NCBI GenBank assembly: GCA_049999805.1
Contig: JBNGIO010006317.1
Coordinates: forward strand, 127,315-191,314
Source: Folioceros fuciformis
Taxonomy: Eukaryota
Length of the DNA: 64,000 nucleotides
Direction of reading: 5' to 3'
In this document: positions 877 through 60,199 of the stretch, piece after piece
How positions within the stretch are numbered: the stretch's first letter is position 1
Layout: every line of letters starts with the position of its first letter
The notes under the pieces: model-generated
Seen by the model: the letters and a program-made list of their open reading frames with translations, nothing else
What the model was told of the DNA's origin: nothing
The model's database searches: none
Program-made: the position numbers and the translations under genes

Positions 877-1713
877 TCACTCCCTGTCTGTTTCTGCATC
901 TACTTCTACATCTGCATCGGCATCTACTGCGTCTGCTTCTCCTTCGGCATCGACTTCCAATTCGAGCCTAGCCACAAAGGTGCAAAATTCTGCCAGATCG
1001 ATGGTGCCGTCGCCGTCCGCATCGGCAGCCTGAAGCATCTCCCGGACCTCGCTTTCGCTGGGGCTGTAGCCCATGGACTGCATGGCCGCGCTCAGCTCCA
1101 GGGCCGTGATCCGCCCGTCGCCGTTGCTGTCCAGCACGGAGAACGCCTCCTTGTACCTTTCCTCCATCTCCTCCATCTGCTGCTTGCTCAGGCCATGCGA
1201 GACCTCGGGATGGGACTGGGACTGGTGCATCTGGAGCCTGTCCGTGAGGATGAGGAACTCCGCCAAGTCCAGGCTCCCGTTCCCGTCCAGGTCGCCGGCG
1301 TCGATCAGGGCCTGGACCTCCTGCTGGGACATCTCGTGGCCCAGGAGCTTCATGGCGTGCTCCAGCTCCTCGGTCGTGATGCGGCCATCGCCGTCCTTGT
1401 CGTAGAGGGCAAAGGCGTCCTTGTACGGGGCGAGCTGCTGGGCGGTGAAATTGGGTAGCTCTCCAGGCCCCAGATGCCAGCCCAGGATAATGAGGAACTC
1501 TGCGAAGTTCAAGTGCCCATCTCCGTCCAGATCGCCCTTGCTCACCATCTCCTGCACCTCCTGTTCAGTGACATCCAGGCCAAGCACTCCCATTGCGATA
1601 CCCACCTCCTTGCCGGTGATGCTACCGTCGCCATCGCTGTCCACCCGACGAAAGGCCTCCTTGAAGCGTGTCATCTTTTCCTTGGTGAGCTCCTGTCGCC
1701 CAGTTGCAGCCAT
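877..1713 (-). CDS. Calmodulin-like protein with 6 EF-hands (three lobe repeats) and acidic tail
   Basis: 278-aa ORF with loops DSDGDGSITGKE, DLDGDGHLNFAE, DKDGDGRITTEE, DLDGNGSLDLAE, DSNGDGRITALE, DADGDGTIDLAE. Confidence 0.92.
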   Translation of the reverse strand: MAATGRQELTKEKMTRFKEAFRRVDSDGDGSITGKEVGIAMGVLGLDVTEQEVQEMVSKGDLDGDGHLNFAEFLIILGWHLGPGELPNFTAQQLAPYKDAFALYDKDGDGRITTEELEHAMKLLGHEMSQQEVQALIDAGDLDGNGSLDLAEFLILTDRLQMHQSQSHPEVSHGLSKQQMEEMEERYKEAFSVLDSNGDGRITALELSAAMQSMGYSPSESEVREMLQAADADGDGTIDLAEFCTFVARLELEVDAEGEADAVDADADVEVDAETDRE

Positions 1714-1957: not shown

Positions 1958-4795
1958 CTATTCTGCCTGGGGTGTCCGGAGATGCTCAAAACCAATTGCT
2001 CCCAAGCTCATGTCGCGTACCTGCTGTTGTGCAACCCAACGCCAATAGCCAGACGTAGGACTGAGAAATTCGTACAGGGAGTAGTCCTGCTCCAAGTTGA
2101 CCTTCACTTCCTGGTTGGTAGACTGCATGGCCACAGTCGGGTACAGAAGGCCCCCCTTCAAGGTGTTTGATACACATCCAACTACAGTGCCGTTTTTGAC
2201 GAAGAAGAGGTTGTTCGTACCATAGTGGATTCCCACGCCCACCGTATCACCCGTGCGGAATGTGGCACCTAAAGGCTCCAACACGTCGTGCATGTGGACA
2301 ATGCCGTCGTCACCGTGGTAACCACAAGTGTTGACTGCCCATCCTGGTTGCTGGTCATCTTCGAAGTGCACCTTGTCGGTAAAGCCGATCCCTACAGCAG
2401 AGTCTTCTCCACCACATAGAATGGTCACCTCGAAATAATACAGGTGCGTCCGGCAAGGTGCAGGTAGGTTGGCTTGGAGGGCCACAACTTCCCTCACATT
2501 GCGTCGTCTCTTACGCACATGCCTGTCCATTTTCAAACACCATTTTGTGAACCGAACTTGTGACCAGTCAGCCAACAAATGTAAGGTTTCGGAGCGCACA
2601 TAGCTGCCTTACCTTGCTGTTAACCGATCCGGGGAAACAGCTACCAAGGTGGAGTCGCCTATTGTGTCATGGAAGTAGGATGGTAGAGGCTCTTCGGTGA
2701 AACTCCAGTTTCCGAAGTTGAGCAATACTTGGGCGTGCCTACTCCTTAGGCCGATGGTGGGAACCAACTGGCTGGCACCATCCACACTGTTGGCCATGTC
2801 CAGGGCCCCCAACAGCTGACCTTTGTGGGTGAAAAAAATCTGCTGGCTGCTGTGCAGGATTCCTGCACCCACGATATCACCTGTCCCGAATTTCGGGCCC
2901 TGCGCAACATCTGCCTCACTACCCCATGACCCATCCAAGCTGTGGTATCCCCAGGAGCCCCGATACAGCCCAGGTAGGTGATTAGGCCAAAAGGATGAGT
3001 CGCTGGTGAATCCTATTGTGATGCTCCCGTCGTTGGTTCCCTTGTTCTCGACCTTCATCTCGAAGTATGACACCATATGCTGGTGTGAGAGAGGTCGATT
3101 AGCCTGCACGGCAACTGCATCAGCCTCAGTGGGCTTCAGGTACTTCACTGCTAGTTGGTCGCTGGAAACAGTCATCCATCGTGGATTACAGTTGGTGCTG
3201 TTGAGAAACGGAAGTTGGTTGTTGATCTGACTTCCCTCTGATGAGGGTTCTCTCCATGATAGGTCCCGCATCCTCCTGACCACGTTCTCAACTCCTGTCC
3301 CACCTGCCGTTGGTGAGTGTTATAATGCACTGGAGCACTGCTCCATCCGGATACGAAGCGACAACAAAGACCACCATCGGGATCACTCACCTGGGGGCAG
3401 GTCTCCATGCTTGGAAACAAGACGCTGAATCTCATCACGTTTAGAGATGCACTCAAGGTCATCTTCCGCCCACGACAAAACATGGTTCAGCCTCACAAGG
3501 GCCTCAACATACAAGCCTTGCCTGGCTTTATCCAGGGCATTTTGTCGGTACTCCATACGCAGCAACCTATATTTCTCTTCCTGTTGCGGGAACTTCGCAA
3601 ACAGCCTGCTCCTCACGTCAAAGTCATCAAAAGCAATCTTTAGGGGACGATCTTCCCTTGGATCGAAGGGACTCTTGGTAATATTGTAGGTCAACAGGGT
3701 CCATCTGTCATAAGTCCTCCCGTCAGAGCCCTTCACTGGATCACACATTATCTCCCACGTGATTGGATCATGGTACCATTTGTGTGGGTTGGCCGCTTGC
3801 GTAGACACTAAGGCCTGCTGATGAGGTCTGGCGTGTATCTTAGCCCTCTCTCTCTCCATCTCTACCATGACCTGAAGCCACAAGCATTCAACAGGGATTC
3901 TCAGGAATATCATGCAGAACTCCAACATCATCACTGGTAGCCCTTACAGCATGGAAGAATTCCCTGATGGCATCCGTTTGTGCGTCTGCAGCTTTGACAA
4001 AGCAAATAACTCCTTCCAGGAACATGCCAGGATATGCCTGAACTTCAGCACGCAAAGGTTTCCACACTGCTTGCAACTGCTGTCGAAGAGCCTCATGGGA
4101 TGTTGACGAAGAGGTCCCAGTGTAGGTTCTGAGCATAGTCTGCAGCTGCGACAGAGCCAACTGGAACTCGTCCCGCTGTGCCATGCTCTCCACTGCCGCC
4201 TGACGCCCCATGCACACAGTCGAGAAATAAAAACAGGGTGCTACGAAGGAGCATCACTGTCATCAAAAGGCTACACACAGGCTGCATAGCATCACTGTCA
4301 TCAAAAGGCTACACACAGGCTGCATACTTCGAGGAAAGTAATGAACAGCGTGGTTTGAAAGAAAATCATCACACGCTGTCGGAGCGAGTGAAGTTCAGAA
4401 AGTGTCTGGCTGGCGTCCCAGTGCGCCTCTAAAAACCCCATACCCAGAATTTTGTGCCCATCCTTGATTGCGTGCCGAAGTTCCTGTTCCAAGGCCCCTA
4501 CACAATGGCAGACACAAGTTCACTCTCATCAGTGACTGCACCGCATACACCAGTATCAGAGGCAGCAAACAATTACGCAACTGCTTGCAAGACACATGCC
4601 AAGAGCCCAAGCTGCTGTGTTCCTGCGACAAAACTGGTTGCCGCCCAGCGCCATCATGTTGTGTTCCAAGTTCTTTTCCAGCAGGCTCAGCTCCGCAGCC
4701 ACTTGACAGCTCTGGCTTTTGGGAGCCCACAAGTCGTGCGCCAACAAAACCACCTTGAGCAGGACCTGGGCCGCAGCCATCGCGAGTTCTGCCAT
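1958..4795 (-). CDS. Multi-exon putative E3 ligase: N-terminal helical bundle (MLKL/UND-like) + U-box + TPR-like helices + two RanBP9-type SPRY domains
   Basis: U-box: WYHDPITWEIMCDPVKGSDGRTYDRWTL...KSPF. SPRY1: VQANRPL...YFEMKVENKG...ITIGF...PG...SWGYHSLDG...GPKFGTGDIVGAGI...IFFTHKG. SPRY2: LQANLPAP...YYFEVTI...VGIGF...PGW...GYHGDDG...FRTGDTVGVGI...FFVKNG. Phase-compatible introns at about 3947-3872, 3390-3304 and 2612-2523. The 5' exons are less certain. Confidence 0.8.
4250..4325. repeat. 38-bp direct tandem duplication (intronic)
   Basis: agcatcactgtcatcaaaaggctacacacaggctgcat occurs twice back-to-back. Confidence 0.9.
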
Positions 4796-5765
4796 CCTGA
4801 TAGAAATCCCAGCACAGCCCTGATGCCACCAAATAGATCCTGAGTTTACGCATCCTCGCAACCCACACAGTCTCAACCAGTACACCCACTCTCCTCTTGG
4901 ACACGAAAACCGCCAGGAAGCCAGCCGGAAGGCGGTGAGGTGACAAGTTGTTCTAGAACTTAGCAGCCTGCTCCCGCACCGACATAAATTCCATGGAGTA
5001 CATAAATTGCAAGACGAGGGTGAACTCTGAGCTCTCTACGTCTGGACAGTGAGGTCTGCAGCTGACGTCTTCACAAGATATTTTTATGCCCAAAATTTTG
5101 CAGCCCAGGTCCAAACCCGGCGCGGTGGCCATGGTGTCGAGGGATAGGGCCATTCACCGTCCAATGTACATAACTGTAGCTACCTCACCAGCTCACGTGG
5201 GCCCACCGAGAGACAGGATCTGAGGACCACGGAGAGAGTACAGGTACATACGTCTCCTGTCGTGTCCGCGTTCCGATGCCGCAGATGCTGCTAGAACCGT
5301 GGTTGAAGCTACACTTTTCCATCACAACGTTCGATAATGGAGCCCCCATGACCGCGTCATGACCCGGCACAAGTGAGGCTTCGTACTGTAGTCCAAACCA
5401 TCTGGAGCCTTCACGTTCAGATGACTGTCGCTTGAAGCTTACACGAGAGAAGAACCAGTCCTACATTCAGTGTCGGTAAGTGTATCACTGATGATAAGTG
5501 GCCTGCTTGGTCGTAGAGAAAAGCAAGCAGTTGTAACGGTTGTTTGCAACCTGGTTCGGGATGAGGAGGAGGACACCAGGGGGCGCAATGTGCACATGAC
5601 GAAACCTGGTTCACGTGCACCTCGCACGCATTCCTATGGCGATGGCGAATCGCAGCCGTCGTAAGCCCTCCCTGCGGTCGTCGCGCGTCTTGTCTGGCTT
5701 CCAGCGTCTGCTCTGGAGGGACTCGCTGAGGACGCTGTTGAGTCGCATTGGCAGGTTTCGAGGTC

Positions 5766-7035
5766 ATGGGAGCAGTCTGGCCCTTGCAGTGGTGGATTGC
5801 AGTGGTTGCAACTTCTACATTGTTGAGCTTGTCTACAGGACGGCATCCGGATCCAGAAGTGGAGCTAGCACCAACATTCGAGAGCATCCCAGGGCAGAGC
5901 TACGCGATTTGGCAGATCCCGAGCAAGCCGGTGGCATTGCTGCTGGTGGCGCATGGGCTGCACCACGGGGCAGGATCGTTTTGGGATGCTGATCCCGGCT
6001 GCGAAGTCTGCTCGCCGCTGCCGGAGGAGAGGCTGGTGACCAAGGCGGCTTTGGCGCGGGGGTATGCTGTTATCACCGTCCAGGGAGGGAGCAAGGACAG
6101 GGGATGGAATTTGGAGACGGATCTGAAGATCAATCCCGACTTTCTGCGAGTTTCGGAGTTCTTGCGGTCGTGGAGGAGACGTCACGATCTGGCGAGTCTT
6201 CCCCTCCTCGCTTTTGGACTGTCGAGGGGAGGGGATTTCGTGTCGGTGTTGCCATTGGGGATGAGAGTGTCCGGCGTTGTGCTTATGGTCAGCCCCGGCT
6301 TGGAGGCAGCCGCTGAGCTGGCTGCGGTCCCATCTGTGGCTGGTTTGAGGATTTGGCCTTATCCTCCCACGCTCTTTGTTCACGTAAGTGCACCGATTTG
6401 TTGCAAGCCAGCTCTCTTCTGCAGCAATCTTGATGCTTCGTGATGATTGTGGAATCGTGTAGGTGGATGAAGAAGCGTCTGTCAGATTTGTAGGTGTTGA
6501 TCAAATGCTGGCTCATCGGTTGCAGATGCCGAAGGACAGTGCCACAAGCCAATCCGTGCAACGCCAGATGGCTTCGTTGTCCGCCAAGGGTCTCATAACG
6601 GGCGAGATTAGGTGCTATGCCTTTCCCGTGTATGAATCCTTGTTTTCGGACAGGATTCCGGGGCTGCACTGGAACGTATCTTCCGCCATTTGGGAGGGTC
6701 TGAAAGCAGAGGGATACCTAACGCCAGATGGCTTCTTGAATCAGCCAGATCCAGTGGACTGGGAAACCTATGGAGACTGGGACTGGACTGCGGTGGTGCA
6801 GTCTCTGAAGCAGGTCGAAATTCCCCAAGCTAATGGCACCGACTCCCAGGTCTGGATAGGGGCAGTGGCCGAGGAGATGAGTCTTAGTTATGGCTTCCAC
6901 TCCTGTTCCAGCCTGCCATCCGTCGAGATTATGGACTGGCTAGACCGGACTTGGAGGCACTCTCCGCATGCCTGGATAGAGGGGGACGCCGGGTCTGATA
7001 TCGGCAACCTCAGTCACGGCCAATCAGATGCCTAG
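5766..7035 (+). CDS. Secreted/membrane alpha/beta-hydrolase-fold protein of an uncharacterised plant family (2 exons)
   Basis: Hydrophobic N-terminus, LLLVAHG, CEVCSPLPEE and a GLSRGG nucleophile elbow (GxSxG). Intron 6384(GTAAGT)-6525(CAG) joins to give PTLFVH|MPKD. C-terminal YGFH is a candidate catalytic His. Confidence 0.75.
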
Positions 7036-7323
7036 CAAGCTCCTAATCACTCCAACATAAAGAAATGTTTCTGAATTTGTCAAGGCAGCTGAGCTGAGGT
7101 TTGATTCCTGCATTCTTCATTCCAGTGGACACAGTTTGTCACAGCAAGAGGTATAGGAATATCCGCAGAGCAGGATGCGGGCTCGACCAAAAACTATGGC
7201 GGGGATACTATGCAGAAGCCTACTTACGACTGCTGGAAAGTGCAACTCATATCCTCAAGCCGCCCATGTTCAGGAGAACACTATCGTCAGTCCATCTAGC
7301 AGTCTACACACTGCCGTGATCCA

Positions 7324-10649: not shown

Positions 10650-12467
10650 TCAGGTCCATTGAGCGACAAGTACTTTGAACCATTTGCCAGGGAAGACCTC
10701 TTGATCTACCACCCTCACTGTATCATTCACCTTCTCAAAGAGAGTAGCCAGGTCTTGGACACCAAGGGCAGTTAAATCTAGATGTCTTGAGAATTTTGCG
10801 TGATACACATCTAGAAAGCCAGGTACTAGGAGCTTTAAGTTATGGCTTACAAGAAGCTCTTGTAGCTCCATTTTGAAAAACTGAAGTCTAACGTTGAGAG
10901 CGTGCTCCTTCGCCCTCATCGCTACTAGCAACTGCTCTCCGTTCTCCACCTCGTAATTCACTCTCAGAGAACCTGAACCGAAGTCAGGCAGAGTAGGTTT
11001 CCTTGTCTGCGGTGCATCCCGTGCTGTGCCTTGAAAATCCTTCACGCCGCCCTCACTTGCTGCGCGCACATCCTCGGGCACACTTGCCATCCTGTCATCA
11101 AGATCTCTTACATTCCTATCTGCCGTATCTCGTGTATTCCCACCATCAACATCTCTTTCATTCCTATGATCAACATCTCCTGCACTCCTATCAACATCCC
11201 GTGCATTCCTATCACCATCTCTTGAAGACCTTTCATCCACATCTTTTGCTGCATTTGCTAAAGCGGCCCGAATCGGTTCTAAGTCCAGTTCTTCATTTAA
11301 CCCAGCATTCAGACACTCTGAACTAGCTTCAGATTCCAAGACTGTATTTCCTCGATCACTCGTGGTTCCGTCCTGATGCCGCCCCTTCACTCGATACACA
11401 GTTCTGCTCTGATGCCGCCCCTCCACTCGTACAACGTCCGACATCTTCCCCAGCAGGCCAGCCAGGCTAGCGCTGTTATAATCGTCCAGAAGCAGTTTTC
11501 TTCTGAAGACCTTCAAATAAGCCCCAGGGACGTTAGGAAATGCGAGCTTCCCACCATGCAGATCCAGAAGCTTTTGTAGTTCAACTTTCAGGACCTCAAT
11601 ATCTCCTGGCTCACTCTTGGCAGCAGAAGGTCCTGACTCTTGGCCTTCTTCCTGACTCGTAGTGGAAGAGACAAAATCACCCCCAGCGGTTGGTGTCTTC
11701 CTTCCGCACGGCACCAGCGGCTCAGCATCAACCAAGGAGACCGACGTCGTACAGGACCTCATGTCACTGACGGTGACTTCTGGACAGAAACCCGTTTCCG
11801 TCATGGTTACAGGATCCACATCCTCAGCAGCCTCATCGATCATGACTCCTATGTGCCTGCACCCGATTTTCACCTTCTCCTCTCGAGGGACATTCACAGG
11901 CAATGCAACAGGACGTCCTTTTGCAAGCATGGGCCAGGCAAAAACACACTCAGCCGCTTGGTTAAGGGGAGCTGGAAGGGATCCTAAGGGTGCGGCCACA
12001 AGCACCCGGTATCCCCTGTGCTTCAACTTGTGCAGCGCATGAGCAAAATCAGAATCCCCTGATATCAAGAGGATGGTTGCGGGAGGTGGGTTGTCCATAG
12101 CGAACAGGAACATATCAGACAGAATAGCCTTGTCAGCAGCATCCTTCCTCCCCGTCGGAACATCAATGAGATTCACACCAGTTCGCTGATATCCCTCTCT
12201 GTTCCTGTAGGACATGCGGGCAGTGTCACCATAAGCTGAGAACGTAGTCACAGGACCCAGTACAGACTGCAAGTGCAAGGCGTTCAAAATGTTCGTAGCC
12301 ACAACCCCAGGAAGCACATCACTCGGAACGCGACAATTTTCGATGTCCCACAGGATGGCCACTGGCTCTGCGAGCTCATGATGAGGTCGGGGCAGAGGTG
12401 TAGGAAACTGTTGGATCACTCGGGGCTCCATGGTGATCTGCCTGTAACGGGGCCCATGAAGTGCCAT
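10650..12467 (-). CDS. NYN-domain ribonuclease with two LOTUS/OST-HTH domains (MARF1/limkain-like)
   Basis: Intronless 605-aa ORF. NYN motifs AILWDIENC, FSAYGD, GRKDAADKAIL, LLISGDSDF. Two OST-HTH-like segments: ELQKLL...YLKVFRRKL...LAGLLGKM and ELQELL...YHAKFSRHLDL...LATLFEKV. Confidence 0.9.
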   Translation of the reverse strand: MALHGPRYRQITMEPRVIQQFPTPLPRPHHELAEPVAILWDIENCRVPSDVLPGVVATNILNALHLQSVLGPVTTFSAYGDTARMSYRNREGYQRTGVNLIDVPTGRKDAADKAILSDMFLFAMDNPPPATILLISGDSDFAHALHKLKHRGYRVLVAAPLGSLPAPLNQAAECVFAWPMLAKGRPVALPVNVPREEKVKIGCRHIGVMIDEAAEDVDPVTMTETGFCPEVTVSDMRSCTTSVSLVDAEPLVPCGRKTPTAGGDFVSSTTSQEEGQESGPSAAKSEPGDIEVLKVELQKLLDLHGGKLAFPNVPGAYLKVFRRKLLLDDYNSASLAGLLGKMSDVVRVEGRHQSRTVYRVKGRHQDGTTSDRGNTVLESEASSECLNAGLNEELDLEPIRAALANAAKDVDERSSRDGDRNARDVDRSAGDVDHRNERDVDGGNTRDTADRNVRDLDDRMASVPEDVRAASEGGVKDFQGTARDAPQTRKPTLPDFGSGSLRVNYEVENGEQLLVAMRAKEHALNVRLQFFKMELQELLVSHNLKLLVPGFLDVYHAKFSRHLDLTALGVQDLATLFEKVNDTVRVVDQEVFPGKWFKVLVAQWT

Positions 12468-13139
12468 GTCCTCTATAGCTAGAATTCAATACCTCAAGCT
12501 ATTTCCAAGAGCCCTGGCCCCTTAAAGCATCACGCGAAAAATATAACTCTGCTCTCCGCAAGGATACTTACACAATTCACAAGGAAGCAGCTCAGAATCA
12601 ACCACGTGGCTTGCAGGACACCCTATTTGCGACACCACCACAGCTGCATCAAGTTGCTCTTATCTCCAAATTTGCAGCCCTCCAGTCCAGAGAATTCCCC
12701 TGCACTGTCGCCGACACTACCACCCTCATTCACCTCCCGACACCGGGGCTGCGGAGTCAACTCGGAACATCCTGAAGGCAGCTCACAGGTCCCATTATAC
12801 CATCGCCCACCATCCCGTGGCTTCTACCAGGCTTCCTCTCCTCTCAATGCTACAGTCCACGATACGAGAGTGGAGATCGCTCCTGATGACACTGCACAGC
12901 CAGAATCCGAACCCCTGCGACTGTTGACGCGTCCCTTTGCCACAAGTGGCAGGTGAAACCAAGGACGCTTGACGAAATGCTCGTCTGTAAATCCAAAGCG
13001 TGGAGTACTGGATTTTTGAATGTTGAAAACCAAGGGGATTCCGATACTGTCACGCGATGCCCAGGGCCCGAGTGACAAGCCTACACCTGGGCACTCCTAC
13101 CTGCCTTTGAAAAAAGGCAGACTTCGCCCGTTGGCCGGG

Positions 13140-27150: not shown

Positions 27151-27393
27151 TTACCCAAAGCTTGGAAGAGGACTACTGTCGGCAGGCTTGCCGGGAATGC
27201 TGATGTTCATGTGGTGCCGATGTAGGAGCTGGATTGGAGAGGTGGCATGCCTGTCCATGCACCTTCGAATTACCTACAGGCCCGTCTGGCGGGGTCTCAC
27301 AATTTGGTAGCTTGCAGAATGCGTGGGCATGCATGATACCGGGGCCACTCTGCCATCGTCTTTTAGACACAACCCGACCTCGGTCCCTGAACG

Positions 27394-30300
27394 ATGGCCA
27401 CAGTATGGCAACTGGACCCGTTCTGTGTCCAGCAAATTGGTGCGTCTCCAGGGATTATTCCACGAGGAGCTGCTGCTCACCTGATGGTAGGGAGCCAGCC
27501 CCTGGCGAAGAATGCCTTCAGGTGCAGCAGTGCGAGGAGCTCGGCAGCTCCGCTTCCAGGAAGATCTGTACATGGGGACGGGATTTTAAGTGATGGTCGT
27601 TGCCAGGAGCAGGAGCAATTGTGGGAACGATTTTTTATGGAACCGACCATGTGGTGGGACAACAGACGAGATAAGAGGAGCTCCCGTTCGCCTGACTTCC
27701 GGCGTAAGGGGTCCGGTGAGGTCCTGTGGTTGAACAGCATGTTCAAGCCAGCTTGGGTTGATGAGCAGCTCGTTTCCTTGGATACGCAGATGGGTCGCGG
27801 TGGCTCTCTTTCCGAGTCCAGCGCTACGGACAAGCCTGGATCTGGGGGGTGTGGAGGGTTGGGAATGGGCGTCGTAACGGATGCAACCGTGAGCATGTTG
27901 TGTCAGCAGGGGGAGCTCTCTGAGGCTGTTGGAGCCCTGGAATCTCTGGTGCAGACAGATTCTGCGGTTTCTCAGTCTCTGCTTTACACTGTGTTGAAGC
28001 TGTGTACAGCTAAGAGGGATCTGGCTGCGGGACGACGAGTTCATCGTCTCACTGCCAAACTGGGGTTCGAGTCGAGCGCGTACTTGGGGAACCATATCTT
28101 GCGCATGTATTCATCTGGAGGTAGGCTGCAGGAGGCCATGGATGTGTTCACCAAGGTGGAAAAACCAAATGTGTTCATGTGGTTTTCCATAATCTCTGCC
28201 CATGCTAAGCACGGGAAACCTAAGGAGGCCATACAGCTGTACCATGACATGCGTAGGTCAGGAGTGAAGGCGAATGGTCACGTCTTTGTGGCTGCCCTGC
28301 AGGCTTGCGCAGGTGCTGCCGACTTGGAATCTGGGAGAGAAGTGCACTGTGATGTGTTGCACAGTGGCACTCCCACTGACTTGTTTGTTGGCAACGGCCT
28401 GGTGGTCATGTATGTAAAATGTGGTGAGATGAAAGATGCTCGCCAGGTTTTCGAGAGCATGGCCTCGAAGGATGTGGTGACATGGACGGCGCTGGTATCT
28501 GGTTATGCAAAACGTGGTGAACTTGAAGATGCTCGCCAGGTTTTCGACAGCATGAGCACGAAGAATGTTGTGACATGGACTGCGCTGATAGCTGGGTACG
28601 CCGAGCTAGGGCTCGAACAGGAGGCGCTTGTTTTGTATGGACAAATGGAGCAGGAGGGCCTCGTTTTGGCTGACCGTGTTGCTTTTGCTTGCCTTCTGAA
28701 GTGCTGTGGAGGCGCCGGTGCCTTACAGAAGGGCAGGCAGTTGCACTCACAGATAGTCGAAAGAGGGCTGCTGGATGACGTAGTGGTTGGCAACTGCCTG
28801 GTGGACATGTATGCCAAATGTGGCGAACTGGAAGATGCACGCCAGGTTTTTGACAGCATGAACACGAGGGACGTGGTGACGTGGACCGCCCTGATATCCG
28901 GGTATGCACATCAGGGACTCGGTCGAGAAGCACTTGCTGTGTATGATGAAATGGAGGAGGAGGACGTTATTGTGGCTAACCATGTTACTTTTGCTTGCCT
29001 TCTGAAGGCCTGTGGAAGCGCAGGTGCCTTACAGAAGGGCAGGCAGCTACACTCACTGATTGCCAAACGAGGGTTGCTGGATAACGTAGTGGTGGGCACC
29101 TGCCTGGTGGACATGTATGTAAAATTTGGTGAACTGGATGACGCACGCCAGGTGTTTAACAGCTTGGCCACAAAGAATGTGGTGACATGGACTGCGTTGA
29201 TTGCTGGGTATGCACAGCAAGGACTTGGCCAAGAGGCGCTTGTTGTGTATGGGCAAATGGAGGAGGCGGGCCTCATTTTGGCTGACCAGGTTACGTTTGC
29301 TTGCCTTCTGAAGGCCTGTGGAAGCACTGGTGCCTTACAGAAGGGCAGGCAGCTGCACTCACAGATTGTCAGAAGAGGACTGCTGGATGATATAGTGCTG
29401 GGCAACTGCTTGGTGGACATGTATGCAAAATGTGGCGAACTGAAAGATGCACTCCAGATTTTTGACGGCATGAGCACGAAGGATGTGGTGACATGGACCG
29501 CCCTGATATCTGGGCATGGCAGCTGTGATGAGGGTCACAAGGCACTTACTTGTTTTGAGGAGATGTTAGTTGCCGGTATTCAGCCAAATGATGCTACTTT
29601 TACTTGTCTTTTAGTAGCATGCAGTCATGAGGGACTGGTTGAGGAGGGTCGCAACCTCTTTGATTCTATGGGCGAACAGCATGGCACCAGACCTACTGTT
29701 GAGCATTACACTTGCATGATTGATCTGCTTGGGCGCGCTGGCCACTTAGATGAGGCAAAGGACATGCTGTTATCATGTGAGGGCCAAAGTAATGTTGTAG
29801 GGTTGACATCTTTGTTGACTGCCTGCCAAAGTCACGGGGATCTAGAAAGGGCAATCTGGTGTTTTGAAAGCATTGTTAAGCTTGACCCCCAGGAGGGACC
29901 CGCCTATGTGCTCATGGCCAATGCCTATGCAGACGCAGGCAGGTGGGCCGATGTAGACAGAATTGAAACACAGAGAAGGGCAGCAGGAGCTAACAAGAAA
30001 CCTGCACTGGCGACCATTGAGGTGAACAAAGAGGTACAGAGATTTCTGGTGGGAGAAAGGAGAGACGATATTGCGCTGAAGGTGGAGAGCACAAATGCTC
30101 GTCTGAAGCAGGAAGGAGGCCACGTACCTCACACAAAGTTGGTATTGAAGCCACTATGTGAGAAGGAGAAGGAAGATCTCCTTTGTGGGCATGCTGAGAA
30201 GCTAGCTCTGGCGTATGGTCTCTTGAACACTCCGAGTGGCACACCTCTGATGGTAACCAAAAATCTCCGCATGTGCAGTGACTGCCACAGCTCCACGGAG

Positions 30301-30399
30301 ATCATGTCAAGGCTTGAACAAAGAGACATTGTTGTAAGGGATGGGTACCGTGTGCATCGATTTGCAGCTGGGTGTTGCAGTTGTAAGGGTCGGCCGTGA
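27394..30399 (+). CDS. PLS-class PPR-E1-E2-DYW:KP protein (GRP-ending), candidate organellar U-to-C editing factor, with N-terminal PDF motif
   Basis: Intronless 1001-aa ORF: transit-peptide-like N-terminus, about 18 P/L/S motifs, E1/E2, then KKPALATIEV...HAEKLA...KNLRMCSDCH...HRF...CSCKGRP*. Confidence 0.95.
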   Translation: MATVWQLDPFCVQQIGASPGIIPRGAAAHLMVGSQPLAKNAFRCSSARSSAAPLPGRSVHGDGILSDGRCQEQEQLWERFFMEPTMWWDNRRDKRSSRSPDFRRKGSGEVLWLNSMFKPAWVDEQLVSLDTQMGRGGSLSESSATDKPGSGGCGGLGMGVVTDATVSMLCQQGELSEAVGALESLVQTDSAVSQSLLYTVLKLCTAKRDLAAGRRVHRLTAKLGFESSAYLGNHILRMYSSGGRLQEAMDVFTKVEKPNVFMWFSIISAHAKHGKPKEAIQLYHDMRRSGVKANGHVFVAALQACAGAADLESGREVHCDVLHSGTPTDLFVGNGLVVMYVKCGEMKDARQVFESMASKDVVTWTALVSGYAKRGELEDARQVFDSMSTKNVVTWTALIAGYAELGLEQEALVLYGQMEQEGLVLADRVAFACLLKCCGGAGALQKGRQLHSQIVERGLLDDVVVGNCLVDMYAKCGELEDARQVFDSMNTRDVVTWTALISGYAHQGLGREALAVYDEMEEEDVIVANHVTFACLLKACGSAGALQKGRQLHSLIAKRGLLDNVVVGTCLVDMYVKFGELDDARQVFNSLATKNVVTWTALIAGYAQQGLGQEALVVYGQMEEAGLILADQVTFACLLKACGSTGALQKGRQLHSQIVRRGLLDDIVLGNCLVDMYAKCGELKDALQIFDGMSTKDVVTWTALISGHGSCDEGHKALTCFEEMLVAGIQPNDATFTCLLVACSHEGLVEEGRNLFDSMGEQHGTRPTVEHYTCMIDLLGRAGHLDEAKDMLLSCEGQSNVVGLTSLLTACQSHGDLERAIWCFESIVKLDPQEGPAYVLMANAYADAGRWADVDRIETQRRAAGANKKPALATIEVNKEVQRFLVGERRDDIALKVESTNARLKQEGGHVPHTKLVLKPLCEKEKEDLLCGHAEKLALAYGLLNTPSGTPLMVTKNLRMCSDCHSSTEIMSRLEQRDIVVRDGYRVHRFAAGCCSCKGRP

Positions 30400-40694: not shown

Positions 40695-40766
40695 GTAGCA
40701 GGAGCAGTAGCAGTAGCTTAAACAGAAGCAGAAGCAGTAGCAGTAGCAGAAACAGAAGCAGAAGCA
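40695..40766. repeat. (AGCAGT/AGCAGA)n simple repeat, likely 5' UTR
   Basis: gtagcaggagcagtagcagtagc...agaagcagaagcagtagcagtagcagaaacagaagcagaagcag. Confidence 0.8.
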
Positions 40767-40809
40767 GTGTTGGGAGCGCTGTGTCTGCTCTCTGATTGTA
40801 GGTCCGTTG

Positions 40810-43785
40810 ATGATGGACAAAAGACCAAAGCAAGTAGTGTTCAAGTCGCCTGACACAGGTGAGGATGAGCTCCGGAAGACATCGACTTCGAAGAGGACTA
40901 AGAAAGACCGTAAACTTGGGGTACCCCTCTTCAGCCTCCGCTTCTCAAAACGCTCCGATGTTTGCAGGTCGCCGCATCCTTACAGCCCAGGAGTGTGGTC
41001 CACTACTACCCCTGGCAGTTCGACTGGATCAGTTGAGATGAACAAGGGCGAGGCCGTACTCACGGTAGACAGAGATCCGGAGGCGGTGGAAGAGCCTGTT
41101 GATGAGACAGATTTGGATGAAGATGAGGATTTCAAGTGGTATGGGCGAAAGGATAAGCTGGCTCCGGAAACTGCAATCACACTGTTTGCTCTCAGATTGG
41201 CGGCTCTGGAGAAGACAGCCAGCAATCTAGGGACCCTTGCATTTTTGTGGGCGACTGTCGTGTTGTTGGGTGGGTTTGCTACCACTGCCAAATCCATTGA
41301 TTTCTGGGTTGTCGCGGTGTTGCTCTTCACCGAAGGGATAAGGATATTTGCCAGAAGCCATGAGCTGGAGTGGCAGCATGTCGCATCCAAGGCCACGAAG
41401 GCGTTTACCGAAAGGGCCAAAAGGGCGACCACCACCGTATACAAGGTGCTGTGGTCCTGGAATTGATTCCCTACATGCTTGGCAGTAGCAGACTGTTTCC
41501 TTTGTTTAGGATGGATAACGATGACTGACAGCTCCCGTGACATGCAGGTTGGATCTGATGTTATGCAGAGGAGCTCACAAATGGTGAGGACGGTTCTGCA
41601 TTCTCTTGTTTACAAGCCTGAGAATGCCGAGCATGGCGTGGATCATGCAGTACTTGAAGGGGATGGCCTTGAGTTGGGACCAATCCCAACACCGCAGAAA
41701 ATTGATCAGAGAAAAATCCCGAAATTAAAACATGAAGATAGGACCATCAGCACCCTGAAGCAGGCTGCAGCGGCACCTAGTGGGAATCCGGGGTTGATGA
41801 AGCGAACATGGTCCAGCACACTTGTTCCTTTCATACCTTTCTCCCGGCTGACCCTCTTTTCTGCTCAAGCAATCAGTCTCTATCTCTACTGGATGCAGAT
41901 ATGTTCAGCAATCTCGAGTGTTGGCTTGTCGAGTTGGCGACTGTACCACCATGACTTCATTGACCCGTCCTCTGATCTCGGGAAAGCTGCCAACAATCTT
42001 ATTCTTGCGCTGGACCTGTTCTACGGCTTGGCCCTTGCTGAGGCTGCCGTCTTCCTTTTGGAAAGGTTCTACTGGGAGGTGAAGCTCACCCACGAACAGT
42101 TGATCGTGAAGGTGAGCAAGGACTACAAGTTGCAGAACAAGGAGATGCAAGACGTGGTCAAGGCTTTCTTCTACGAGGTTTACAGCAAGAGCTTAGAAGG
42201 GAGCTTGTTCACAGGGCTAGACATGGACCTGGTAGCGTATTCCATCGATCTCATCCAGAAAGATTCCCCCAAGGACCAGCTAGCAGGCTCCCAGCTGCTC
42301 AAAGCATTGCTCGACGATAAAAGCTCTGCCGAAGACACCCTCCGTCGTCTCGGCTCCACACCCAGGGTGTTTGAGCGGCTTGTGGAAATGCTGTCATGGC
42401 ATAATCAGCACGAGGAGCAGATCCGTATCTCAGCTGCTGAGATTGTGCACAAACTGGTGCTCTTCAGCCGTAACACATTCCGCATTGCCAGCATAGCTGG
42501 TGCTCTGGAGAGCATAGTGTCCCTGCTGGGTGTTTCGGAGTTGACGGGACTGGAGAACATGGACACCACGGATGATGCCACCACGCTCCGGCTCTCAGGG
42601 CTGCGCATCTTGAAATACTTGGCCCGTGATTACAACAACAGGGCCAGAATCGGGGCCACCAGGAGCTTGCTTCCTATCCTCGTGTCCTTCACGCACGTCA
42701 AGACGAAGCCTGAATTAGATCTCCAGGTATCTGAAGTACCTGCTGGCAAGGTGTTTAAGAAATCGTTGCAAATTCTGAGCATGCTGGCATCCACTCCGGG
42801 TACTACAGGGACCCAGCTGCGGGCATCCATCATCCACGTGATCTTCGCTGTGCGGAACATCAGGGACATTCTACAATATGGGTCGCGCAATCTCCCAATG
42901 CAGGCGTGTGCTGTGGACCTCCTTATCAACTTGGCTATGGACGATGACATCAAGGTGCGGGAAAGCCTGGGCGGCACGGGAGGTTTGATACGCCATCTTA
43001 TTGCGCTCCTGCTGTTCAAAAAGACCTTGCAACCAGAAGAGACAATGCTGCAGGAGCAACTCCGGCTAGCCGAGAAGGCAGGAAAGTCGCTCAACCTGCT
43101 TGCTCTGCAAAACGAGAAAAACTGCCGCAGAATGATCCAGCTGCGGGATCTGGAAACAGGGCAGAAAATCCCGACTCTGCAATACTTGATGGAGCTGGTG
43201 CCAGACGTCGAGCTCGGGGCCACATCCGCCAACATACTGCGCTCCTTCTGCGTGTATGCGAATCCGGAAGACAAGGCACAGCTGACAACCATCATCCCTG
43301 CTGCCTTCGTCATTGTCATGACGAAGGACGGGAAACACCAGGAATCCGCACTAGGCCTGGCTGCTCAGGCTCTTTCATATACCGTGGCCACCGGAGAATA
43401 CGGTGCTGCAGAGCTGGACAGAGTCTTCTCAAAGATCGAAGTGGACAAGCACATGTTCGTCCACAAGCTTATGACACTCATCCCGTCCAAGACTTCTCGG
43501 CCAAGGCTGAGGCGTCATGCCGTGGAGCTCATGAACGCTCTCATGGATGCGGATCCATGTTTTGTGCACAAGTTCCGGGAAGCTGACCTAGAGAAGAAGC
43601 TGCATTTCTTGCTGGAGACGATATGGGACATCGAAAACTACTACACTTTCTCCGGCCATGTAGGGCTCACACGCCACCAGCAGGACATGGAAGACTTGGT
43701 CCGTAGCGCCCAAGATAGACTGCTTCCATTTCAATCTCCAGGAGCTGCCTCACCGATGTCAGGACTGCAGCGATCCATGTCCTGA
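40810..43785 (+). CDS. BLE2-like protein: N-terminal transmembrane segments plus ARM-repeat region (2 exons)
   Basis: ALRLAALEKTASNLGTLAFLWATVVLLGGF...DFW...TEGIRIFARSHELEWQH and LDLFYGLALAEAAVFLLE, followed by a long ARM-like helical region. Intron about 41446-41547. Confidence 0.8.
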
Positions 43786-56710: not shown

Positions 56711-58501
56711 TTAGGATCCGGCAGCACAGTCCCACCGGGTTGCGAGAGCAGGAAGCCTTTCCTGAATCACCTTCCACACGCTCTGCAGTTCCTCGTCTGC
56801 GGCCTTGAGCATCTGTATCATCCTGCGCAGGAGAACCGGTTTGCTGTCTCCCAGGCACTTCTTAGCCACATTCATGTACTGGTATATCTCGTCTGGGCTG
56901 AGGGTGGATAAGAGATTGGGGAGTAGATGGGAATGAGATGACTCCATCACACACAAAGATTTTGTAACCAACACTTCCTGATGCTTTACTCCTAGTCCCG
57001 CCTGTTGCAGTACAGGTAGTAGCTTGCTTTCCTCCTCCTCAAAGTGATCTGTAGTTTGCTCCTGCATGTCATTCCACGTAAGATGAAAGCCATCCAAGTG
57101 CTGAGCAAATTTACCACGAATTTCAGCAATATGCACAAAGGCTGCCAACCACAGTTGCCTCCGTATGTCATATAGTTTGTTACCCAAAACTTTCGCAGAC
57201 GGATGGCTAGAGCGTGAAGGGCCTCATCACGAACAGGGCTGCGCATTTCCAGAGCAGCTATTGACTTGATATCCTCTCGAATGCCATTCATGATGGGGAG
57301 CTGTCTTGCATGTTCATTGTCAGCCATCTGGGTAACACCTGCGACCAGAGCTTGTCAGCCTCCAGCAATTTACTTGTTCAGGAGGAAAATGCAAGCCCTG
57401 CTGCACCAGACGATGTATCACATTTAACGCTTAGCATGAACCTACCAACCTGACTCAACACTTAGCATGAACCTACCAACCTGACTCAACATTCTCCAGC
57501 GCAGGGAAAACAAATCTCTCCTCCATCTGTGCATGTTCCTGCATGATCTCCACGAGCTGACCATACTTTTTTGACAGGAGTCTCATCTGGCTTAGGCCCT
57601 GTTGCTGGTTTGTTGCCACCAGACCCTGTTTCCGACCCGCTAGCTCATCAGCAAGCTGCACAACCCTATCCAAGTGAGCCAATATGCTCTTATGCTGCAA
57701 AGTTATGACGATCAGCACCGGTGGAGGAGCTCCGTCCAACAGCGTTTTGGCAATGGACAACTTCAACACAGCGATGTCCAACTTCACCGGAATATGCACC
57801 GAAAAACTCTCCATCTTCTTGCTATACGACAGTAGACGAGAGTAACTGGAGCTGATTTCTATTCCCCGGAAATACGTGAGAAGCTGAACCAGATCTAGGA
57901 ACGGAATCAAGTACACATCAGTCATGGTAAACTGGGATCCAAAGAAGAACGGGCCTCCTTCACCGTTCAACCACATGGCATGGTCCAGCCTTCCAAACAC
58001 TGCATCCAACCTCGGCACAAGCTCCTGCTGACTGGCCTCGCTCCCATCACACAAAAGCTGGCTCACTAGCGGGCTGAACTTGTCCCGGACATAGGATGTC
58101 CACTCTCGGACAGGTCCTTCAACATCTCCGGAGGGAATCAAGGGCGGCTCCCTGAACGTCTCATCTATGTACTCAATTATGGCATCTGGAGATCCCTTCA
58201 CCATCCGTTCTCCATGCTGCAAGGCCAGAACCTTCTGGCTAGTTCTTGCAGCGCCCACCCAATCAAAGTTGAACCAATTCTCAGTCCCAGGCTCCCAAGC
58301 TTGCTCAAATTTTACTCCCTTAGCTTGAATTGCCAGACGGACTCTTGCCGTGAAAGGACACAACCTGAAGCCAAACAGCCGATTCTGATTGGGAATCACA
58401 GGCTGCTGAGCCTTCGCAGAAGCTGGAATGTTAGCTGATGCTTTCTGATTTTCAGGCTTGATGCAATCAGATTTTGCCTGCTTCGCCAAGCATGAACCCA
58501 T
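56711..58501 (-). CDS. GSTH: Hemerythrin-class glutathione transferase (GST-N, GST-C, hemerythrin domain), 3 exons
   Basis: Cys-GST motif CPFTARVRLAI; AIIEYIDETF.EPPL; GPFFFGSQFTMTDVYLIPF; hemerythrin motifs LQHKSI, EHAQMEERFVFP, EHARQLPIMNGIREDIK, DHFEEEESKLLP. N-terminus MGSCLAK. Confidence 0.9.
57430..57491. repeat. 31-bp tandem duplication spanning the exon-1 splice donor of GSTH
   Basis: cttagcatgaacctaccaacctgactcaaca occurs twice. Confidence 0.92.
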
Positions 58502-60199
58502 TGTCTCCTTTCGCTCACCTCCTGACTATGTACACCTCCCAAACCTCCGACCTCTCCGTTGCAGCGTCGTTCTGCATGCAAGATTGCCTTATCTTTCTCC
58601 ACAGTAGCTCAGGCAACTACGTACATTTCTTTCCCCCAATGCGCCATGGCTAATCTACATCCTGGAATTCTACATCACAAAACAATTTGCATCATGCGCA
58701 CATTGGCCACTGAAGATTGGCAAAGAAATCCAAGATGGCTCTCCCGCCAAACTTTGAGCTCTTCAAGTAATGATTTGTTTGTTGGTTGGCACGTGGTCAG
58801 ACTTCCATCCGGCCGGAGGTGCGTATGTTGTAGGAAATTATTTTTCCTAACGTGTATTTACGCCTACTTGGTACCCATTAGCTTCTGGTGATAAAGTAAT
58901 GTAAACAAAAAGCTTTTTACAAGCCTCTATATTTACCAAACTAAAAGTTAAAATTATCTATTTTTAAATGGATCACAAGGGCCAAAAAGAGGGCCCTAAA
59001 ATTGTAGTGGTGAGGAGTACTTTGGAGCTACCGATGACAATTGTGGGAGAAATTTTTGGATACTTAGTGTTAAATGACTCTTTCTAAGGCAATATTATTC
59101 GAGCAAGATCTTGAGCAACATGCATATATTCATATGGGCAGACGAAGACGGGCTCACCTTAGGATGAGTCTTCGTGATCATAGCTTTCAAGCACCACATC
59201 TTGGATACCCACAAAATGGAGGAAGAGACCCAAAAACAAAGTTCAAGCCATGGTCTAGCTAAGCTTTCTCTACATTTAGTCATCATAAGACATTCTTTTG
59301 CACATTTTTGGCTTCATACACATGCATTGAGTCCTCTTAAATCTAATGCACTCATCCTTGAAAACGCATTGTAAACATTGAGTTCTCTTAAATCTAATGC
59401 ATTCATTCATTCTTGCAAACGCATTGTAAGCACAGTTTCGGCAAAGCTCTCTCAGCATGCGGGCCTTTATACAAATCTAAAACATCTTCTCACATTAAGG
59501 ATTGTTTTTGCAAAGGGAGCAATGTTTCACACGGATAAATAAACTTAGGAAAGGTGGAAGGAAATGTTTCTTTTTAGGTGGGTGGCAATTGCATTGTTCT
59601 TTGGGACGAACTTTATAATAATAAGAGGATGCTTTTTTCTTGACCTCCCTAATACCCAACAACTTGGTGATAGTTCTCTTCAAGTGAGTGGAAGTTGCAT
59701 TGTTATTTGTGACTAACTCTACATTAATAAAAGAATGCTTTTTTCATAACTTCCCTAATACCCAACAACTTGGTGTGAAATGACCTATAGAATAAGCCAA
59801 ACTTTGATAAAAGGATGAGGTACAAGTGTTAATTGGCCTAATGAAGAATCATTGTTGTCTCATTGCTCTCTAAGGCCAAAACAAGAGGATGAGTATTTAC
59901 AATTGATGGTCGAACTAAATCCTAATGAATGAATGGCCGTCATGGAACTAAAAGAATTGATGTATATCATTGAAAAAGAGACACAAAATTTCATCTACCC
60001 CAAAGATGACTAGGAACAACCCACAGAGGGCCAAAGGCTAAAAGAGAGACTAGGCCTCTCCAAGATGCTCCCAAAATGATATGATGTGAAATAACAAAAG
60101 CCTACTCTATAACTACAACATGCTCCCAAAATGTCATGATGCGAAATAACAAAAGCCTTCTTTATAACCACAACATGTGCCCAAAGAATCGCTTGCACT

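What the first reader, a model, noticed from the sequence alone, without database searches (positions are those of the whole stretch)
1958..4795. Unusual E3 architecture: MLKL/UND-like bundle - U-box - TPR-like - SPRY - SPRY
Seen: fragments scattered in the ORF track splice in phase into one gene with a U-box and two RanBP9/RanBPM-type SPRY domains. The N-terminus (MAELAMAAAQVLLKVVLLAHDLWAPKSQSCQVAAELSLLEKNLE...ALEQELRHAIKDGHKIL...ASQTLSELHSLRQR) has the helical pattern of MLKL/HeLo/U-box N-terminal four-helix bundles. Known: plant U-box classes usually carry ARM, kinase, WD40 or TPR domains; I do not recognise U-box plus tandem SPRY as a described class. Inference: a single-chain ligase analogous to animal TRIM/SPRY ligases, possibly linked to immunity or cell death.
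Basis: partly seen in the sequence, partly recalled or inferred. Interest (0 to 1): 0.72.

Follow-up and report, generated by a model that had tools for sequence, protein, structure and literature searches.

The report
Modular seed-free-plant U-box–SPRY ligase
This gene encodes a probable protein-tagging (ubiquitin) enzyme made of a four-helix bundle, an unusual U-box and two SPRY target-binding domains; it belongs to a mix-and-match family of bryophytes and ferns whose parts also turn up in immune-receptor-like proteins, but its function is untested.

Summary
The architecture is real. Six exons (4795→1958, − strand) give a 781-aa bundle–U-box–TPR hairpin–SPRY–SPRY protein, probably in a hornwort.

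It is not unique. It aligns nearly end to end (34%) with unannotated Adiantum proteins, and Ceratodon has a 3×SPRY+ubiquitin version. The bundle is a divergent UND/MCAfunc-type four-helix domain, as in ordinary plant U-box ligases, so it is not MLKL proper. The U-box lacks the PUB tryptophan (0 of 64 family cassettes).

The family swaps tails (SPRY, ARM, TPR, kinase, EF-hand, ZZ), and the same U-box–TPR cassette sits in liverwort hydrolase–NB-ARC gene models. All named hits are liverworts, mosses or ferns.

One contig also continues into a downstream EF-hand ORF.

Best reading: a self-associating single-chain E3 using SPRY for substrates. An immune role is plausible but untested. Seven literature searches found no description; key supplements were unreadable. 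This scan had not noted this family, only a bundle–U-box protein in a giant virus.

The parts
4600..4795 (-). Exon 1 (aa 1-65), helices 1-2 of the four-helix bundle; hydrophobic first helix
   Evidence: family HMM hit 18.6 bits; RNA contig 4599-4852
4498..4599 (-). Intron 1, GC-AG, phase 1; spliced and read-through forms both seen
   Evidence: joint 4496→4599 and a contig over 4469-4628; same position in paralogues L007, L008
4328..4497 (-). Exon 2 (aa 66-122), helices 3-4 of the bundle, holds the invariant Trp and Phe of the family
   Evidence: HMM hit 70.9 bits, exon itself in the alignment; RNA contig 4327-4498
4200..4327 (-). Intron 2, GT-AG, phase 0; holds a 38-nt tandem duplication; if retained the frame stops at 4303-4301 after 130 aa (bundle alone)
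   Evidence: joint 4198→4327
3948..4199 (-). Exon 3 (aa 123-206), helical extension after the bundle (brace-like)
   Evidence: HMM hit 25.5 bits
3872..3947 (-). Intron 3, GT-AG, phase 0, 76 nt; position shared with paralogues but read through in the one RNA library, giving a stop at 3890-3888 (225 aa)
3590..3781 (-). Atypical U-box (aa 237-300) within exon 4 (3871-3391)
   Evidence: Pfam 37.5 bits; fold matches OsCIE1, E4B and CHIP U-boxes; family profile closest to E4A/E4B
3413..3550 (-). Single TPR-like helical hairpin (aa 314-359)
   Evidence: model helices 96-117, 121-134, 139-154; APC6 TPR Z 8.4, rmsd 1.1, 50 aligned, with many other TPR rows
3295..3390 (-). Intron 4, GT-AG, phase 1; a second in-frame acceptor lies 9 nt upstream
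   Evidence: two joints, 96 and 87 nt skipped
2699..3193 (-). SPRY domain 1 (aa 401-565), RanBP9/10 type, in exon 5 (3294-2613)
   Evidence: Pfam 44.2 bits; RanBP9 E 5.7e-16
2523..2612 (-). Intron 5, GT-AG, phase 2
   Evidence: bridged by a 2361-nt contig
2084..2653 (-). SPRY domain 2 (aa 581-740), split by intron 5; stop codon at 1960-1958
   Evidence: Pfam 63 bits
877..1713 (-). Downstream 278-aa ORF with six canonical EF-hands, 244 nt after the stop and out of frame; on the same RNA contig as the SPRY exons (contig ends at 847)
   Evidence: best other match in the genome is the EF-hand tail of paralogue L007
1..783 (-). Second multi-EF-hand ORF, open at the window start where the assembly reads N; almost no RNA cover

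Best explanation
The gene encodes a single-chain ubiquitin ligase of an apparently undescribed seed-free-plant subfamily of UND–U-box proteins. Shown: domain order, folds, family membership, tail swapping. Inferred mechanism: (1) the tandem RanBPM-type SPRY domains bind a target protein or peptide; (2) the four-helix bundle and the helix behind it let copies self-associate on that target; (3) the U-box, held by a one-repeat TPR spacer, recruits an E2 and ubiquitinates the target or itself. This is TRIM-like logic built from plant parts. The conserved unit is the U-box–TPR cassette, with interchangeable heads (bundle, or alpha/beta-hydrolase with or without NB-ARC) and tails. That pattern points to stress or pathogen surveillance rather than housekeeping (inferred). 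In this species intron-3 retention limits the full-length protein in at least the one library seen.
For: Pfam and fold support for each domain. Bundle HMM matches the UND of a canonical UND–U-box–ARM gene in the same genome at 31.4 bits, against 6.7 for the best of 500 shuffles and 11.6 reversed; that UND passes the MCAfunc, PUB10_N and RPW8 cut-offs. Collinear homologues in a fern and a moss. The window protein sits in an 11-row clade (98/97) in which 4 rows carry SPRY tails, spread over both main branches. Eleven U-box/TPR columns are invariant in 28 aligned sequences. The family profile's top four solved matches are E4A/E4B U-boxes. Four copies of the P0015 N-terminus scored 0.41 against a best control of 0.00, with contacts at residues 111-151; runs agreed in at least 33% of contacts, pLDDT at least 48, alignment not used. 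That mark was reached by 21 of 30 microbial self-pairs and 0 of 23 single chains, and by 17 of 29 and 0 of 30 in eukaryotes, but by only 1 of 7 with no older solved relative.
Against: No activity data. The helix tryptophan of canonical PUBs (11 of 11 aligned from this genome) is absent in 0 of 64 family cassettes. The position of E4B R1143, on the E2-binding surface (PMC5655547, passages), is Arg in 21 of 64 and Pro in this protein. Intron 3 is read through in the only RNA library. Paralogue L023 has bundle plus SPRY with no U-box between them, so the bundle–SPRY pair can persist without a ligase domain. The self-association model is of a homologue, has an uncertain fold, and used four copies, unlike the calibration.
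Confidence: 0.55

Rival explanations
1. Immune receptor-executor: the four-helix bundle is a membrane-damaging or signalling domain as in CC-NLRs and MLKL, kept off by the U-box (self-ubiquitination) and switched on when the SPRY tail meets a pathogen effector. Intron retention could release the bare bundle (130 or 225 aa).
For: Best natural fold match is the potato Rx CC domain (Z 10.1, rmsd 2.1, 105 aligned), with MLKL at Z 6.9, MLA13 6.6 and HET-S 6.3. MLKL_N is the commonest weak Pfam hit (4 of 24 members, best E 5e-4). The cassette occurs behind hydrolase–NB-ARC in 3 of 33 hits. A Riccia gene model joins the bundle to a hydrolase–NB-ARC–LRR. Tandem clusters occur in Adiantum and Riccia. 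The first helix here is the most hydrophobic of the 13 family members tested. The self-association model passes weakly.
Against: Z under about 13 for helical bundles can be a common arrangement. Canonical PUB UNDs have equally hydrophobic first helices (1.69 and 1.89 against 1.86), and some family members have polar ones. No NB-ARC or kinase in this gene. The NLR-like fusions are unverified gene models. Truncated transcripts carry early stops and may simply be degraded.
Confidence: 0.17
2. The U-box no longer binds E2. The U-box–TPR cassette is a conserved protein-interaction or dimerisation module, and the protein is an adaptor that links SPRY ligands to another complex.
For: Family-wide loss of the PUB tryptophan, a new invariant Trp right after the conserved Arg (60 of 64), a shortened helix and an acidic pair in place of the Pro-Asn of canonical PUBs. 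Pfam scores of 29-39 bits for the five family members in this genome, against up to 91 for canonical ones.
Against: E4A/E4B also lack that Trp (His instead, as in 20 of 64 family cassettes). The hydrophobic residue and the Pro-Phe matching E4B L1107 and F1141 are kept. A linchpin residue is not required in all RING/U-box complexes (PMC12919000, passages).
Confidence: 0.15
3. This copy is decaying or mostly non-productive. The family is real, but here the 5' half splices poorly, and the RNA serves mainly a bundle-less U-box–SPRY ORF (ATG at 3868, 574 aa), the downstream EF-hand ORF, or nothing.
For: Intron 3 read through, intron 1 partly read through, GC donor at intron 1 where two paralogues have GT, a 38-nt duplication in intron 2. 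A broken copy (L011) and a copy with no bundle hit upstream (L009) exist in the genome. One contig runs through the EF-hand ORF to 847.
Against: All six exons are open and in phase with intact splice signals. The branch length (0.57) is within the family's range. Eleven ATGs precede the first ATG in the U-box frame. There is only one library, and contigs drop minor forms.
Confidence: 0.13

Closest known systems
UND–U-box–ARM plant U-box ligases (MCAfunc + U-box + Arm, type I of PMC8049495; AtPUB13-like)
   Same: Homologous N-terminal four-helix domain followed by a U-box; some liverwort family members also end in ARM repeats; partner swapping around the MCAfunc domain is already described (PMC8049495, passages).
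   Different: Tandem SPRY in place of ARM; a TPR hairpin after the U-box; U-box lacks the PUB Trp and resembles E4A/E4B; no seed-plant names among the hits.
Adiantum capillus-veneris GOP47_0027308-0027316 cluster and Ceratodon purpureus KC19_4G163100 (hypothetical proteins)
   Same: Same bundle–U-box–TPR–SPRY order; 34% identity over more than 730 columns to the fern proteins.
   Different: Two or three SPRYs; the moss protein adds a C-terminal ubiquitin-like domain; no functional description found.
Animal TRIM/B30.2-SPRY ligases
   Same: N-terminal E3 domain and C-terminal SPRY on one chain; possible self-association (analogy from established knowledge).
   Different: U-box instead of RING, no B-box, RanBPM-type rather than TRIM-type SPRY, two SPRYs in tandem; not homologous as a whole.
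MLKL (animal and plant) and CC/Cbl-N NLR N-terminal domains
   Same: Four-helix bundle with following helices; weak MLKL_N profile hits.
   Different: No pseudokinase or NB-ARC in this gene; profile hits below cut-off; killing activity untested.
RanBPM/RanBP9 (CTLH ligase subunit)
   Same: SPRY domains are of this type; 38-39% identical to the SPRY of the genome's RanBPM-like gene L021.
   Different: No LisH/CTLH/CRA hit; carries its own U-box.

Membership tests
UND–U-box–ARM plant U-box ligases | U-box domain over the Pfam cut-off | tested here: met
   37.5 bits against 21.4; U-box fold
UND–U-box–ARM plant U-box ligases | UND/MCAfunc-type N-terminal domain | tested here: met
   family HMM against canonical UND 31.4 bits, shuffles at most 6.7 of 500; that UND passes MCAfunc and PUB10_N cut-offs. 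The window's own exons do not reach a Pfam cut-off
UND–U-box–ARM plant U-box ligases | ARM repeats after the U-box | tested here: not met
   TPR hairpin and two SPRY domains fill the C-terminal half
UND–U-box–ARM plant U-box ligases | Conserved Trp in the U-box helix | tested here: not met
   Tyr here; Trp in 0 of 64 family cassettes, 11 of 11 canonical PUBs of this genome
UND–U-box–ARM plant U-box ligases | E2-dependent ubiquitin ligase activity | not testable with these tools
   needs an in vitro assay
MLKL | Four-helix bundle plus brace | tested here: inconclusive
   four helices over 2-123 plus further helices; MLKL Z 6.9, rmsd 2.6, 97 aligned, within the range of common bundles; Foldseek no hit at E 0.001
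MLKL | C-terminal (pseudo)kinase domain | tested here: not met
   no kinase hit in any exon frame; some other family members do carry kinases
MLKL | Membrane permeabilisation or cell death by the bundle | not testable with these tools
   needs an expression assay
TRIM ligases | RING + B-box + coiled coil | tested here: not met
   U-box, no RING or B-box hit
TRIM ligases | C-terminal SPRY domain | tested here: met
   two SPRY domains, RanBP9/10 type
CC(MAEPL)/Cbl-N NLRs | NB-ARC domain | tested here: not met
   none in this gene; present in three Calypogeia proteins that share the U-box–TPR cassette
CC(MAEPL)/Cbl-N NLRs | N-terminal MAEPL motif | not tested
   consensus is in a figure and a supplement that could not be read
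RanBPM/CTLH subunits | LisH–CTLH–CRA after the SPRY | tested here: not met
   no such hit in the exon frames

The most novel reading that the evidence does not exclude
Seed-free plants have a second class of three-part immune receptors in which a U-box–TPR cassette takes the place of (or is added to) NB-ARC as the central switch. NLR-type heads (CC-like four-helix bundle or alpha/beta-hydrolase) are the effectors, and swappable tails (SPRY, ARM, TPR, kinase, EF-hand, ZZ) are the sensors. In this gene, regulated intron retention would cut the bundle free of its U-box brake.
Probability: 0.15. Interest if true: 0.85.

Novelty: new variant of a known kind. Interest (0 to 1): 0.57.

Why it matters
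Plant U-box classes were defined mostly from flowering plants. This gene exposes a family spanning a probable hornwort, liverworts, a moss and ferns, with five or six members in this genome and at least five in Marchantia polymorpha, a transformable model. The family has a distinct U-box and freely exchanged heads and tails. If it is an active ligase, it is a plant-built parallel of TRIM ligases. If the bundle signals or kills, it would tie ubiquitin ligases directly to the NLR/MLKL executioner toolkit and give a testable origin for the UND domain's role. Either can be tested with standard assays.

Tried and rejected
In-frame fusion of SPRY2 to the downstream EF-hand ORF: the ORF starts 244 nt after the stop, out of frame. 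The one strong acceptor (1714) is out of phase with the best donor (2020), and the RNA contig is unspliced from 2521 to 847. A contig across two genes does not show one transcript, so overlap of two RNAs remains possible.

Common origin of the downstream EF-hands and the paralogue's fused EF-hand tail: it is the best other match in the genome (120.5 bits), but calmodulin genes are split by introns and so score lower. The lobe tree was unresolved, and its two calmodulin rows were cut across lobes. Left as a lead.

SPRY tree: unresolved, 1 of 12 inner branches starred.

Sequence-profile searches of the bundle against solved structures found nothing meaningful; Foldseek gave no hit at E 0.001 for either model.

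My first model ended exon 2 at 4373; RNA and paralogues moved it to 4328. The first N-terminal alignment misplaced exon-1 fragments and was dropped.

The run search listed no holder on record as RNA; X1 proved spliced only when laid. Contig depths were not used to rank exons. A retained form of intron 2 is not among the listed pieces (22 were not shown) and is only suggested by bin depth.

ESM Atlas top hits for the bundle (MCAfunc 0.85, PUB10_N, RPW8, MLKL_N) are under 0.9 and are leads only.

Norovirus capsid hits rest on a short shared peptide and were dismissed as chance.

MLKL_N searched in the own genome did not hit this gene.
Full report
Setting. The window is G000:C6317:127315-191314 in an 87-Mb assembly; the assembly reads N immediately before window base 1. 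A PPR-DYW gene at 27391-30399 ends in the residues GRP. PMC9478123 (passages) says this variant is a hornwort subgroup, so the organism is probably a hornwort (inference).

Gene structure. Six exons on the − strand (4795-4600, 4497-4328, 4199-3948, 3871-3391, 3294-2613, 2522-1958) join in phase into 781 aa, with one GC-AG and four GT-AG introns of 76-128 nt. Introns 1 and 3 lie at the same place and phase in paralogues L007 and L008, intron 2 in L007; L008 lacks intron 2 and reads straight across it at the same length. The model aligns to Adiantum P0051 and P0012 at 34% over 763 and 731 columns, and to Ceratodon P0005 at 38% over 655.

RNA. Of 3 runs laid, X1 carried the locus (21 contigs, 18 at 99% or more; one study). 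Joints fall on introns 1, 2, 4 (two acceptors) and 5. Only intron 5 is bridged by a long contig; the others have 24-29 letters on the shorter side. Intron 1 is also read through by one contig. No joint exists for intron 3: an 810-nt contig runs from 4199 to 3390. That form ends at 3890-3888 after 225 aa, just past the helical N-terminal domain, and the U-box–SPRY–SPRY frame would need an ATG at 3931 or later. DNA carry-over is an unlikely cause, because the bins holding intron 5 and the neighbour's intron 6384-6525 show only the spliced contigs' depth (my arithmetic). Contigs drop rare variants, so a minor spliced form may exist. A 2361-nt contig runs from SPRY1 through the stop at 1958 and through a six-EF-hand ORF (1713-877) to 847; this does not prove one transcript.

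Domains. Pfam gives U-box 37.5 bits and SPRY 44.2 and 63 bits, all over cut-off. SPRY1's best solved relatives are RanBP9 and RanBP10. A model of exon 4 (pLDDT 89) matches the U-boxes of OsCIE1, E4B and CHIP (Z 8.1, rmsd 2.4, 68 aligned for OsCIE1) and, behind it, TPR hairpins (APC6 Z 8.4, rmsd 1.1, 50 aligned). The N-terminus was modelled on homologue P0015 because the window's bundle is split over three exons: pLDDT 87, four long helices over 2-123 and four more to 217. Its best natural match is the Rx CC domain (Z 10.1, rmsd 2.1, 105 aligned), with MLKL 6.9, MLA13 6.6, CBL 6.5, HET-S 6.3 and AtMLKL3 6.0; a designed repeat protein ranks first, and such scores are common for bundles. The clearer test is by sequence. 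The family profile matches the UND of a canonical UND–U-box–ARM gene of the same genome (L033) nearly without gaps at 31.4 bits, against 6.7 for the best of 500 shuffles and 11.6 reversed. It matched 3 of 13 frames tested at E below 1e-4, all UND-bearing, and did not match two other PUB10_N-positive genes or the MCA-like gene. L033's UND passes the MCAfunc, PUB10_N and RPW8 cut-offs. So the bundle is a divergent UND/MCAfunc-type domain.

The U-box is atypical. Canonical PUBs of this genome have Trp six residues after the conserved Arg (11 of 11 aligned). The family never does (0 of 64 cassettes; Asn 24, His 20, Lys 11, Tyr here) and has Trp right after the Arg in 60 of 64 (the 64 include near-identical copies). 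The family profile's top four solved matches are E4A/E4B. PMC5655547 (passages) places E4B L1107, F1141 and R1143 on the E2-binding surface. The first two positions are kept here; the third is Arg in 21 of 64 and Pro in this protein. Activity is therefore plausible but not given.

Family. A bundle profile run against 1.84 billion representatives gave 39 hits at E up to 0.001. Of these, 26 carry names (22 liverwort, 3 fern, 1 moss), 5 are unnamed Logan proteins and 8 were not looked up. A U-box–TPR profile gave 33 hits, 31 named (26 liverwort, 5 fern); that search scored only the top 8000 candidates of 455-2000 aa. No named hit is a seed plant or alga; hornwort and lycophyte proteomes may be poorly represented. 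Tails seen: SPRY ×2-3 (over cut-off in six Adiantum models; Ceratodon with ubiquitin; Logan P0015), ARM, TPR, kinase, ZZ, LITAF-like, EF-hand arrays. Heads seen: the bundle, or an alpha/beta-hydrolase, in three Calypogeia models followed by NB-ARC before the cassette. One Riccia model joins the bundle to hydrolase–NB-ARC–LRR. These are unverified gene models, though one hydrolase–U-box protein comes from a 1769-nt Logan contig. In this genome the U-box exon has 6 matches: L007 fused to EF-hands in one ORF, L008 and L009 with degenerate SPRY-like tails, L010 with unknown repeats, and L011 broken. L023 has the bundle exons and a SPRY with no U-box between. In a core tree of 31 rows the window protein falls in an 11-row clade (98/97) with the fern, moss and Logan SPRY forms, liverwort TPR forms and the EF-hand forms; its sister grouping with the EF-hand forms is 89/94. 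A SPRY tail at the base of that clade is the simplest reading (inference).

Self-association. Four copies of the P0015 N-terminus scored 0.41 against a best control of 0.00; runs agreed in at least 33% of contacts, pLDDT was at least 48, and the alignment was not used. The mark was reached by 21 of 30 microbial self-pairs and 0 of 23 single chains, and by 17 of 29 and 0 of 30 eukaryotic ones, but by only 1 of 7 without an older solved relative. Contacts centre on residues 111-151, which include the invariant Phe114. This is weak support for a coiled-coil-type oligomer through helix 4 and the next helix; the likeness to MLKL's brace is recalled, not tested.

Mechanism. Most likely (0.55) a single-chain E3: SPRY pair binds a target, the bundle region clusters copies, the U-box recruits an E2. 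Rivals: executor-type immune receptor (0.17), catalytically dead adaptor (0.15), decaying copy (0.13). The first helix is hydrophobic, but no more than in two canonical UNDs, so it does not decide between them.

Literature. Searches for U-box with SPRY and Marchantia (0 papers), with fern (4 unrelated by listing), with MLKL/HeLo terms, with moss and hornwort terms (1 paper), for member gene ids and for MpPUB (5 listed) found no description of this family. PMC8049495 (passages; 12 of 21 supplement files searched) describes MCAfunc + U-box + Arm as ancestral with partner swapping and has no SPRY mention in what was searched. PMC11579444 (passages, part of Discussion, 4 spreadsheets) classes 38 Marchantia PUBs in a PDF that could not be read, which may list members. 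PMC11218826 (passages, one section) defines hydrolase and Cbl-N NLR heads and has no U-box mention in its main text; its supplement could not be read. PMC12919000 (passages) was used for the linchpin. PMC7027989 has none of four terms sought. Trenner et al. 2022 is not held. Novelty is therefore 'not found', with these gaps.

Verdict. Observation partly confirmed; interpretation partly supported. A new variant of the UND–U-box ligases, shared across seed-free plants, with an intriguing but indirect tie to NLR-like proteins. Interest 0.57.

Noticed in passing
window 877-1713 and 1-783 (−): Two tandem multi-lobe EF-hand ORFs (six, and at least four, canonical loops). Longer than calmodulin; the first shares an RNA contig with the SPRY exons; the second runs into an N stretch.
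   Followed up: partly
L007:3036-5881 (G000:C5477): Closest paralogue: same bundle–U-box–TPR core fused in one ORF to about five EF-hand lobes, a candidate calcium-regulated ligase; a Logan protein (P0001) has the same layout.
   Followed up: partly
L023:11-2007 (G000:C6575): Bundle exons with the same intron positions, a short helix and a SPRY domain, with no U-box between; cut off by the contig end.
   Followed up: partly
L010:1026-4011 (G000:C6258): Family member whose tail is a many-exon array of Trp/Gly-rich repeats with no Pfam family; the Atlas finds unnamed algal clusters (0.92, low recognition score).
   Followed up: partly
P0070, P0072, P0076 (Calypogeia fissa): Hydrolase–NB-ARC proteins that end in this family's U-box–TPR cassette and a hydrophobic tail, with little or no LRR.
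   Followed up: partly
P0034 (Riccia fluitans R1flu_003287): Gene model with the bundle in front of hydrolase–NB-ARC–LRR; may be a true fusion or two merged genes (neighbour R1flu_003288 has the same bundle).
   Followed up: no
window 27391-30399 (+): Intronless PPR-DYW gene ending in GRP, the variant tied to U-to-C editing in hornworts; it has an extra Trp-rich segment before the PPR tract.
   Followed up: partly
window 56711-58525 (−): Glutathione S-transferase followed by a hemerythrin-like domain (a bryophyte GST class by recall, not checked).
   Followed up: no
window 40747-43785 (+): Two long adjacent frames (239 and 772 aa), hydrophobic then helical-repeat-like by eye, with no Pfam hit at E 0.001.
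   Followed up: no
window 5653-7200 (+): Expressed divergent neighbour with a spliced intron at 6384-6525; hydrolase-like by eye, no Pfam hit in either exon frame.
   Followed up: no
window 10650-12485 (−): 611-aa NYN nuclease with OST-HTH/LOTUS domain.
   Followed up: no
window 4250-4326: Exact 38-nt tandem duplication inside intron 2.
   Followed up: no
L009:136-3187 (G000:C6317): An LRR receptor-kinase-like gene on the opposite strand lies tail to tail with family member L009 (by eye from the reverse frames).
   Followed up: no
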